Assembly (NCBI RefSeq): GCF_988242995.1
Contig: NZ_OZ547043.1
Strand: one strand, 5' to 3'
Length of the DNA stretch: 64,000 nucleotides
The notes under the pieces: model-generated
Told to the model about the DNA's origin: nothing
The model's input: only the letters and a program-made list of their open reading frames with translations
The model's database searches: none
Program-made: the position numbers and the translations under genes
In this document: piece by piece, positions 28,982 through 29,764 of the stretch
How positions within the stretch are numbered: the first letter of the stretch is position 1
How the letters are laid out: every line of letters begins with the position of its first letter

Positions 28982-29566
28982 CTATCCCATCAGCGGGTTT
29001 TTCCCTTCACGACGTAACATCTGACACAGCGCGATTAGCGGTAAACCAACCAGCGTGTTAGGATCACGCCCCTCTAAACGCTCAAACAGCGTAATGCCAA
29101 ATCCTTCACTCTTAAAGCTACCCGCGCAGTGCAGGGGATGCTCCTTACGCACGTAATTATCAATCTCCGCCTCGCTCAGGTGACGGAAATGGACGTCAAA
29201 AGGCTCCACTTCTGTTTGCAGATGCCCATTCGCCGAATTAAACAACGCCAGTCCAGTATAGAAGGTGACGATATTGCCGCTGGCTTTACGTAATTGCAGA
29301 CGGGCATTTTCTTCCGTTAACGGTTTACCGGTGATTTCGCCATCAAGAACACATACCTGGTCTGAACCAATAATTAAATGATCCGGATAACGTGACGCCA
29401 GAGATTGCGCTTTTTCTTGTGCCAGTCGAAGCACCAACTGTCGCGGTGATTCGTCGCTGCGTGGGGTTTCGTCGACCTCGGGTGCTGCACATTCAAAAGA
29501 GATTTGCAGTTTTTCCAGAAGAGCGCGACGCCAGGGCGAGGTGGAGGCTAAAATAAGTTTAGGCAT
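28982..29566 (-). CDS. yceF: Maf-like nucleotide pyrophosphatase YceF
   Basis: Track ORF 28982..29605 trimmed to internal ATG (plus 29564-29566, [21 protein letters not shown]), 194 aa. Confidence 0.88.
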
Positions 29567-29727
29567 ATTTTTTTCCATCAGATATAGCGTATTGATGATA
29601 GCCATTTTAAACTATGCGCTTCGTTTTGCAGGTTGATGTTCGTTATCAGCACTGAACGAAAATAAAGCAGTAACCCGCAATGTGTGCGAATTATTGGCAA
29701 AAGGCAACCACAGGCTGCCTTTTTCTT
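29560..29727 (+). ncRNA. sraB: candidate small RNA SraB in the yceF-yceD intergenic region (approximate ends)
   Basis: Recalled location of SraB between yceF and yceD; plus-strand hairpin AAAAGGCA-n9-TGCCTTTT followed by TTTTCTTT at 29697-29728 could be its 3' end; 5' end not determinable from sequence. Confidence 0.4.
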
Positions 29728-29764
29728 TGACTCTATGACGTTACAAAGTTAATATGCGCGCCCT

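What the first reader, a model, noticed from the sequence alone, without database searches (positions are those of the whole stretch)
29560..29764. Candidate small RNA (SraB) in the yceF-yceD intergenic region
There is a 159-bp non-coding gap between the divergent yceF and yceD, with a plus-strand hairpin plus U-run at 29697-29728. I recall SraB being mapped to this intergenic region in K-12. The ORF track cannot show it because it is non-coding.
Basis: partly seen in the sequence, partly recalled or inferred. Interest (0 to 1): 0.3.

Follow-up and report, generated by a model that had tools for sequence, protein, structure and literature searches.

The report
Known small RNA SraB, confirmed

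Summary
The finding is supported. Rfam gives a full-length SraB (RF00077) match at window 29560-29728 (+), 209.8 bits against a cutoff of 130, E 6.8e-44. K-12 MG1655 annotates sraB (b4418) at the equivalent position, and 168 of 169 bases are identical. The hairpin plus U-run is real: stem 29699-29723, tail to 29728.

Three corrections:
- The yceF-yceD gap is 198 bp, not 159. yceF starts at 29566, so the annotated sRNA overlaps its first 7 nt.
- Published RNA-seq puts the dominant start at 29620, giving a 109-nt RNA. My comparison of 80 Enterobacteriaceae loci agrees: the first 60 nt behave as promoter and yceF-leader DNA.
- 29727-29764 is the invariant promoter of a leaderless yceD-rpmF transcript, not part of the sRNA.

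New detail: most genera carry only a core of about 53 nt (small hairpin plus terminator). E. coli, E. albertii, Salmonella, one Citrobacter and Intestinirhabdus carry a 56-nt insertion forming a covarying hairpin. Short forms score 61-90 bits, below Rfam's cutoff.

The terminator has every published ProQ-ligand feature. No target is established. The only pairing the sequence guarantees is antisense overlap with a yceF leader. Already known; low interest.

The parts
29560..29728 (+). SraB as annotated (169 nt; K-12 b4418 equivalent; full Rfam RF00077 model 1-169)
   Evidence: Rfam 209.8 bits, E 6.8e-44. NC_000913.3 ncRNA sraB 1146589-1146757. 168/169 identical.
29620..29728 (+). Probable main SraB transcript (109 nt) starting at the RNA-seq TSS
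   Evidence: TSS 1146649 in Suppl. Table S1 of PMC7967276 equals window 29620. It folds into three hairpins, MFE equals centroid, z -2.86, 1/200 shuffles, against z -1.92 for the 169-nt form.
29585..29613 (+). Promoter of the 109-nt form: -35 TAGCGT (29585-29590), 17-nt spacer, -10 TAAACT (29608-29613), then GC-rich ATGCGC before the TSS
   Evidence: The position fits the published TSS. The block CATTTTAAACT is present in 79/80 loci, and the T and G at -35 and -33 are conserved. The hexamer assignment is my inference. The consensus match is weak and the scanner did not call it.
29620..29660 (+). Hairpin 1, lying within a 56-nt lineage-specific insertion (about 29618-29672)
   Evidence: Present only in the E. 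coli, E. albertii, Salmonella, Citrobacter sp. L065 and Intestinirhabdus loci. Six pairs keep pairing through changes on both sides in an ungapped 5-species alignment, and several G.U pairs point to the plus strand.
29668..29696 (+). Hairpin 2: inner stem CGCA/UGCG (29676-29679 with 29685-29688), loop AUGUG (29680-29684); outer helix 29668-29673 with 29691-29696 only in long forms
   Evidence: Inner stem is 97% paired but almost invariant in sequence, so there is no covariation signal. The outer helix is 56% paired across genera. The core CGCAATGTGTGCGAAT is present in 72/80 loci.
29699..29728 (+). Intrinsic terminator: A-tract plus GC stem 29699-29723, U-rich tail UUUUUCUUU 29720-29728
   Evidence: Folds. 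The helix is 89.7% paired with 5 pairs changed on both sides, and 0/500 shuffles reach the observed score. The U-tail block is in 80/80 loci and the A-tract in 76/80.
28982..29566 (-). yceF (Maf-family m7GTP pyrophosphatase) CDS; published TSSs at 29596 (P2) and 29671 (P1) on the minus strand
   Evidence: K-12 annotation. The Pfam Maf domain starts at residue 16 of the long ORF. TSSs 1146625 and 1146700 are from PMC7967276 Table S1. The P1 leader is complementary to SraB 29620-29671.
29727..29764 (+). yceD-rpmF promoter: TTGACT (29727-29732), 17 nt, TAATAT (29750-29755), GC-rich GCGCGCCCT, then the yceD ATG at 29765 with no Shine-Dalgarno sequence
   Evidence: Promoter scan gives 9/12. The string TTGACT-N17-TAATATGCGCGCCCTATG is exact in 80/80 loci. 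yceD is described as lacking a 5' non-coding leader in PMC4378010.

Best explanation
This is the sraB gene, which encodes a known enterobacterial small RNA. It is transcribed rightwards from a weak-consensus promoter (-10 TAAACT, 29608-29613). That promoter sits back to back with a yceF promoter, and transcription ends at an intrinsic terminator (29699-29728), so the main product is about 109 nt. A 169-nt form is annotated from 29560. The terminator carries an A-tract that pairs with the first U residues of the tail. This is the architecture recognised by the FinO domain of the RNA chaperone ProQ, and it disfavours Hfq. ProQ binding has been shown for K-12 SraB. Inferred steps: ProQ stabilises the RNA and helps it base-pair. 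The only pairing partner guaranteed by the sequence is the yceF leader transcribed from P1 (52 nt of perfect complementarity, 29620-29671), which would work like FinP/traJ antisense control. My estimates are about 0.35 for yceF antisense control, about 0.35 for unidentified trans targets and about 0.25 for no regulatory target. Published data show the RNA repressed by ppGpp in Salmonella and raised in one replication-inhibition condition in E. coli.
For: Identity: Rfam full-length match above the gathering score; K-12 annotation and 168/169 identity; the locus is present in 5424 of 5426 complete E. coli genomes. RNA-level selection: 6 compensatory pairs in hairpin 1; 5 in the terminator, with 0/500 shuffles reaching the score; the plus strand folds well (z -2.86) while the opposite strand does not (z +0.10). 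ProQ class: 1:1 binding, HDX and SAXS with SraB (PMC5393179); co-IP enrichment (PMC6156199); the defining terminator features (PMC7367173) are all present and conserved. TSS and antisense geometry: PMC7967276 text and Table S1. Regulation: more than 4-fold ppGpp repression in Salmonella (PMC3963941); 5.1-fold increase in one replication-inhibition condition (PMC11228462).
Against: No target or phenotype is established in the searchable literature. The one phenotype, egg-albumen resistance in S. Enteritidis (Jiang 2010), is known to me only second-hand. yceF transcripts were barely detectable in one of the two TSS datasets, which weakens antisense control. Most genera lack the 56-nt insertion that provides the antisense overlap, so that mechanism cannot be the ancestral one. 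The most conserved RNA segment (hairpin 2) is invariant rather than covarying, so its conservation could reflect DNA-level promoter function. A Klebsiella study reported lower SraB levels in an hfq mutant. Expression in this particular strain was not measured.
Confidence: 0.9

Rival explanations
1. The RNA is a by-product with an insulating terminator. The AT-rich -10 region fires in both directions (yceF P2 leftwards, sraB rightwards). The conserved terminator exists mainly to stop rightward transcription from running into the yceD-rpmF promoter, and the RNA itself has no target.
For: The -10 elements of sraB and yceF P2 overlap on opposite strands. The terminator U-run abuts the -35 of the yceD promoter in 80/80 loci. 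Conserved blocks are mostly promoter-like. Hairpin 2 is invariant rather than covarying. No target has been reported since the RNA's discovery in 2001.
Against: The RNA is abundant and specifically ProQ-bound. The lineage-specific hairpin 1 keeps its structure through compensatory changes and keeps an exact 56-nt length, which an inert by-product would not need. The ProQ-type A-tract is conserved in 76/80 loci.
Confidence: 0.2
2. It is a trans-acting, Hfq-dependent sRNA of the usual enterobacterial kind.
For: SraB levels fell more than 3-fold in a Klebsiella pneumoniae hfq mutant, as summarised in PMC12716042.
Against: The sequence immediately 5' of the terminator is A-rich and pairs with the U-tail. 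In PMC7367173 this is a negative determinant for Hfq. SraB is used as a model ProQ ligand. The Klebsiella effect could be indirect.
Confidence: 0.08
3. It is a 5' leader or attenuator of the yceD-rpmF operon rather than an independent RNA.
For: It lies directly upstream of yceD on the same strand. Both are linked to growth-rate or ppGpp control.
Against: A strong conserved terminator is followed by yceD's own invariant promoter, and yceD is reported to have no leader. The K-12 record annotates a discrete ncRNA.
Confidence: 0.04
4. It encodes a small protein.
For: A 16-codon ORF (MCANYWQKATTGCLFL, 29680-29730) starts at the invariant AUG in the hairpin 2 loop and recurs in several genera.
Against: There is no Shine-Dalgarno sequence. 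The stop codon straddles or lies beyond the RNA 3' end. The frame runs through the covarying terminator and breaks in short-form genera that have 1-nt indels. The 9-codon ORF in hairpin 1 is absent in Salmonella.
Confidence: 0.02

Closest known systems
SraB (Rfam RF00077; E. coli K-12 b4418; synonyms pke20, psrA4)
   Same: Same locus between yceF and yceD, same strand, 168/169 identical, and a full-length model match above the gathering score.
   Different: One substitution (29641 C for T) in the loop of hairpin 1. The annotated 5' end is probably not the main 5' end.
ProQ/FinO-class RNA ligands (for example the cspE 3'UTR, malM 3'UTR, SibB, RaiZ)
   Same: Terminator hairpin, at least 4 U at the 3' end, and an A-rich tract 5' of the stem that pairs with the tail. 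ProQ binding is published for SraB.
   Different: Unlike RaiZ or the Sib RNAs, no target is established for SraB. It is longer and has more hairpins than the 3'UTR ligands, and it also contacts the ProQ linker and C-terminal domain.
FinP/traJ-type cis-antisense control
   Same: A structured RNA bound by a FinO-domain protein, encoded opposite the 5' leader of a divergent gene. The overlap with the yceF P1 leader is 52 nt, and hairpin 1 could form a loop-loop contact.
   Different: No effect on yceF has been shown. The main sRNA does not cover the yceF ribosome-binding site; only the 169-nt form does. Most genera lack the overlapping segment.

Membership tests
SraB (Rfam RF00077) | Covariance-model score at or above the curated gathering score (130 bits) | tested here: met
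   209.8 bits, E 6.8e-44, model positions 1-169 of 169.
SraB (Rfam RF00077) | Sequence identity and position equivalent to the K-12 sraB gene | tested here: met
   NC_000913.3 1146589-1146757 equals window 29560-29728, with 168/169 identical.
SraB (Rfam RF00077) | Synteny: between divergent yceF (Maf) and yceD-rpmF | tested here: met
   Pfam identifies Maf, YceD and L32 on the flanking ORFs. The same arrangement is seen in K-12 and in the 80 related loci.
SraB (Rfam RF00077) | Accumulates as a discrete small transcript | not testable with these tools
   Northern and RNA-seq evidence exists for K-12 and Salmonella only through the literature. This strain was not assayed.
ProQ/FinO-class RNA ligand | 3' intrinsic terminator hairpin of at least 2 bp followed by at least 4 U (PMC7367173) | tested here: met
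   Stem 29699-29723 and tail UUUUUCUUU. The helix is 89.7% paired across 52 distinct sequences.
ProQ/FinO-class RNA ligand | A-rich tract immediately 5' of the terminator stem, pairing with part of the U-tail | tested here: met
   The four A:U pairs (AAAA 29699-29702 with UUUU 29720-29723) hold in 45-52 of 52 distinct sequences. The A-tract is present in 76/80 loci.
ProQ/FinO-class RNA ligand | Direct binding to ProQ | not testable with these tools
   Published for the K-12 169-nt RNA: EMSA, SEC-MALS 1:1, HDX and SAXS (PMC5393179). This allele, which differs by 1 nt, was not tested.
Cis-antisense regulator (FinP/traJ-like) | Overlapping transcription of both strands, giving perfect complementarity to the target leader | tested here: inconclusive
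   The published TSSs (sraB 29620; yceF 29596 and 29671) imply a 52-nt overlap with the P1 leader. However, yceF transcription was not confirmed in one dataset.
Cis-antisense regulator (FinP/traJ-like) | The sRNA changes expression of the overlapping gene | not testable with these tools
   No data were found.
Hfq-dependent class I sRNA | U-rich sequence 5' of the terminator and a long single-stranded U-tail | tested here: not met
   The 5' flank is CAAAA and it pairs with the tail, leaving only UCUUU free. The criterion is from PMC7367173.
Small-protein-coding (dual-function) RNA | A conserved ORF with a ribosome-binding site and an in-transcript stop codon | tested here: not met
   See: no Shine-Dalgarno sequence, the stop codon is at or beyond the 3' end, and the frame is not conserved.

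The most novel reading that the evidence does not exclude
The evolutionarily conserved unit is not the 169-nt RNA in Rfam and the K-12 annotation. It is a minimal ProQ-type RNA of about 53 nt: a 4-bp hairpin with an invariant AUGUG loop plus an A-tract terminator. It is fixed between a bidirectional yceF/sraB promoter and the invariant, rRNA-like promoter of the leaderless yceD-rpmF transcript across Enterobacteriaceae. The E. coli and Salmonella lineages later gained a 56-nt structured insertion that creates the antisense overlap with the yceF leader. If so, the ancestral role of SraB is tied to growth-rate (ppGpp) control at the yceD-rpmF promoter, and the standard model mis-draws its boundaries and misses most homologues. 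The architecture is observed directly. The functional reading is speculative.
Probability: 0.3. Interest if true: 0.35.

Novelty: already known. Interest (0 to 1): 0.1.

Why it matters
As a discovery it does not matter. SraB has been catalogued since 2001, is in Rfam and in the K-12 reference annotation, and is a standard in-vitro ligand in ProQ studies.

Three practical points follow:
- RefSeq/PGAP records of other E. coli strains do not list sraB, so an ORF-only or PGAP-only view of this window leaves the interval blank.
- The annotated 5' end is probably 60 nt too far upstream. This matters for anyone designing deletions, because the first 7 nt overlap the yceF start codon and the next 50 nt hold the yceF P2 and sraB promoters.
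- Rfam's 130-bit cutoff recognises only the long form (Escherichia, Salmonella, one Citrobacter). The core of about 53 nt found in most Enterobacteriaceae scores 61-90 bits and goes unannotated.

The core could be a better starting point for comparative target prediction of an sRNA whose function is still open.

Tried and rejected
- **Trans-target scan.** I scanned the 64-kb window with the conserved core (29672-29702). The best non-self hit was inside a LolE-like CDS (63153-63181) at -35.6 kcal/mol, and 0 of 60 shuffled cores reached that value. After adding the opening energies of SraB (+9.4) and the target (+18.6), the net is about -7.6 kcal/mol. The window is only about 1.4% of a genome, so I rejected this as a probable chance match.
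- **Small-protein coding.** Rejected.
- **Repeat origin of the 56-nt insertion.** There is no second copy in the window at up to 3 mismatches. The 'REP' label for sraB in PMC12306157 is a generic palindrome call.
- **The 5' hairpin of the Rfam model (29577-29580 with 29596-29599).** It is not maintained outside the E. coli/Salmonella group: 11-34 of 62 distinct sequences pair at these positions.
- **The simple terminator scanner.** It did not call the plus-strand terminator. The cause is the stem mismatch and the paired U-tract, so this is not evidence against the terminator.
- **Primary sources I could not use.** Tanaka 1989 (yceD promoter mapping) is not held. The Ettwiller 2016 TSS table is held only in truncated form, so I used the re-analysis in PMC7967276 instead.
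- **An upstream promoter for the 169-nt form.** By eye I found only -10 TAAAAT (29549-29554) with a poor -35 (GCGACG, 18-nt spacer; 8/12, below the scanner threshold). The -10 lies in yceF codons and is not conserved in Salmonella or most genera.

Full report
**Observation.** Window 29560-29764 lies between yceF (minus strand) and yceD (plus strand). Pfam identifies the flanking ORFs as Maf, YceD and, further on, L32. Alone, the hairpin is only modestly better than shuffled sequence (z -1.77, 12/200). The simple terminator scanner missed it, because the stem has an internal mismatch and half of the U-run is paired. The K-12 annotation and the start of the Maf domain put the yceF start at 29566, so the gap is 198 bp.

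**Identity.** An Rfam scan of the whole window at gathering thresholds gives SraB (RF00077) at 29560-29728 (+), with 209.8 bits against a cutoff of 130, E 6.8e-44 and the full model 1-169. The K-12 MG1655 record annotates the ncRNA sraB (b4418) at 1146589-1146757 between yceF and yceD. This maps onto 29560-29728 with a single difference, 29641 C for T, which falls in the loop of the first hairpin. The 401-bp region is present in 5424 of 5426 complete E. coli genomes and is at least 99% identical in 5314 of them; the RefSeq/PGAP rows listed do not annotate the sRNA.

**Boundaries.** PMC7967276 re-analysed two TSS datasets. It places the reproducible sraB start at 1146649, 60 nt downstream of the annotated end, which is window 29620. 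It places the yceF starts at 1146625 and 1146700, which are window 29596 and 29671 on the minus strand. The same paper notes that the original 2001 study also saw a product of about 105 nt, and that the Salmonella RNA is about 99 nt.

I tested this independently with 80 orthologous loci retrieved through YceD:
- The 5' hairpin of the Rfam model is not maintained outside the E. coli/Salmonella group. Only 11-34 of 62 distinct sequences pair at its four positions.
- Within 29560-29619, what is conserved is the yceF start region (CATATTTTTT), a T.GCG block at -35 and CATTTTAAACT at -10, both positions measured from 29620.
- The 109-nt RNA folds into three hairpins, with MFE equal to centroid, z -2.86 and 1/200 shuffles. 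The 169-nt RNA gives z -1.92.
- On the minus strand the same AT-rich block reads TAAAAT, 8 nt upstream of the published yceF P2 start. The two promoters are therefore back to back and share their -10 region. This last point is my inference.

**Comparative anatomy.** The loci fall into three classes.
- *Short form, 71 of 80 loci.* The predicted RNA is 52-54 nt: hairpin 2 (CGCA-AUGUG-UGCG), a short linker and the terminator.
- *Long form, 5 loci plus the window.* These are E. coli, E. albertii, Salmonella enterica subsp. arizonae, Citrobacter sp. L065 and Intestinirhabdus alba. They carry exactly 56 extra nucleotides (window about 29618-29672) that form hairpin 1.
- *Cedecea-type, 3 loci.* These have a different insertion, between hairpin 2 and the terminator.

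Structural support differs by element:
- Hairpin 1 differs greatly in sequence between the long-form species but keeps its pairing. Six pairs change on both sides in an ungapped alignment, and several G.U pairs exist only on the plus strand.
- The opposite strand, the yceF P1 leader, shows no excess folding (z +0.10).
- The terminator is 89.7% paired, with five pairs changed on both sides, and 0/500 shuffles reach the observed score.
- Hairpin 2 is 97% paired but almost invariant, so it gives no covariation evidence. Its conservation could reflect an RNA seed, a protein contact or DNA-level promoter function.

Rfam scores reflect these classes. Long forms score 105-200 bits and short forms 61-90 bits (E 1e-9 to 1e-16). 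The Erwiniaceae and Cedecea-type loci score about 35 bits. Routine annotation at the 130-bit cutoff therefore sees only part of the family.

**What lies after the terminator.** The U-run abuts TTGACT (29727-29732), followed by a 17-nt spacer, TAATAT (29750-29755), GCGCGCCCT and the yceD ATG, with no Shine-Dalgarno sequence. This string is exact in 80 of 80 loci apart from the spacer. PMC4378010 already describes yceD as a gene without a 5' non-coding leader, and an older study places the yceD-rpmF promoter upstream of yceD (cited in PMC5049393).

**How it most likely works.**
- *Shown in the literature for the K-12 RNA.* SraB is among the RNAs most enriched with ProQ. It binds ProQ 1:1 and contacts the FinO domain, the linker and the C-terminal domain (PMC5393179, PMC7367173, PMC6156199).
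- *Tested here.* PMC7367173 defines the features of ProQ-specific terminators: a hairpin, at least four 3' U residues, and an A-rich tract 5' of the stem that pairs with the tail and disfavours Hfq. All three are present in the window, and they are conserved across genera.
- *Regulation, from the literature.* SraB is repressed more than 4-fold by ppGpp in Salmonella and is 5.1-fold higher in one replication-inhibition condition in E. coli. The GC-rich sequence after its -10 fits stringent-type control, which is my inference.
- *Inferred.* ProQ stabilises the RNA and assists base pairing. The only partner the sequence guarantees is the yceF leader made from P1, with 52 nt of overlap.

I put yceF antisense control at about 0.35, unidentified trans targets at about 0.35 and no regulatory target at about 0.25. 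Three things count against the antisense idea. yceF transcripts were scarce in the data. The main RNA does not cover the yceF ribosome-binding site. Most genera lack the overlapping segment.

**Rivals.**
- *By-product with an insulating terminator.* Rightward firing of a bidirectional promoter is stopped before the yceD promoter. This fits the geometry and the absence of known targets, but not the compensatory evolution of hairpin 1 or the conserved ProQ-type A-tract. I give it about 0.2.
- *Hfq-dependent sRNA.* Supported only by an indirect Klebsiella observation and contradicted by the terminator flank. About 0.08.
- *yceD leader or attenuator.* Contradicted by yceD's own invariant promoter and its lack of a leader. 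About 0.04.
- *Small protein.* The recurring 16-codon ORF lacks a Shine-Dalgarno sequence, has no stop codon inside the transcript, and loses its frame in short-form genera. About 0.02.

**Dead ends.** A scan of the window for complementarity to the conserved core found an outlier in a LolE-like CDS (63153-63181; -35.6 kcal/mol; 0/60 shuffles). Opening energies reduce it to about -7.6 kcal/mol, so I rejected it. No second copy of the 56-nt insertion exists in the window. Tanaka 1989 and the full Ettwiller TSS table were not available.

**Verdict.** The object is already known, so interest is low. The useful additions are the corrected boundaries, the separation of the sRNA from the yceD promoter, and the finding that the E. 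coli RNA is an expanded version of a core of about 53 nt that standard Rfam thresholds miss in most Enterobacteriaceae.

Noticed in passing
window 29727-29767: Promoter TTGACT-17-TAATAT followed by GCGCGCCCT and the yceD ATG, with no Shine-Dalgarno sequence. The string is exact in 80/80 Enterobacteriaceae loci. It resembles an rRNA-type promoter with a long GC-rich discriminator and implies a leaderless yceD-rpmF mRNA. PMC4378010 already notes that yceD lacks a leader.
   Followed up: partly
window 27363-27699 (-): Full-length Rfam match to the RNase E 5' UTR autoregulatory element (rne5, 260.1 bits), upstream of rne.
   Followed up: no
window 53834-53957 (+): Full-length Rfam match to STnc490, an Hfq-binding sRNA (144.6 bits, E 1.7e-29).
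   Followed up: no
window 5618-5667 (-): Rfam match to the PyrC leader (68.7 bits against a cutoff of 50).
   Followed up: no
window 28871-28981: The rluC-yceF spacer holds REP-type palindromes (GCCTGATAAGGCGTTTACGCCGCATCAGGC and GCCGGATGCGACGTAAACGCATCCGGC). Many of the differences from K-12 cluster here. At the equivalent place, Citrobacter locus L065 has an Rfam naRNA4 hit (1118-1200, minus strand).
   Followed up: no
window 29671-29693 (-): Read on the minus strand, hairpin 2 followed by CTGCTTTATT scores as a terminator-like site. Its base coincides with the published yceF P1 start at 29671, so the meaning of that 5' end, or of a bidirectional terminator, is unclear.
   Followed up: no
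L003:1700-2003 (Escherichia sp. MOD1-EC7003): Mosaic locus. From hairpin 2 to yceD it is 100% E. coli-like (YceD 99% identical). The yceF side and the sraB promoter region are short-form and resemble Pseudocitrobacter (L023). This is either a recombination breakpoint inside the sraB locus or a chimeric assembly.
   Followed up: partly
L052, L056, L060 (about 1790-1940): Three loci (including Cedecea neteri) carry a 91-126-nt insertion between hairpin 2 and the terminator. It contains a second AACTTAAACTAT block resembling the sraB -10 region, so it may be a partial duplication or a small mobile element.
   Followed up: no
L057 (CACSKA010000011.1): The record is titled Chryseobacterium sp. 18061, but it carries an Enterobacteriaceae-type yceF-sraB-yceD locus (YceD 89% identical to E. 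coli). The record is probably mislabelled or contaminated.
   Followed up: no
window 63153-63181 (+): A site inside a LolE-like CDS is complementary to the SraB core in three blocks (8, 7 and 7 bp; -35.6 kcal/mol; 0/60 shuffles). The net energy is only about -7.6 kcal/mol after accessibility correction, so I judged it chance.
   Followed up: yes
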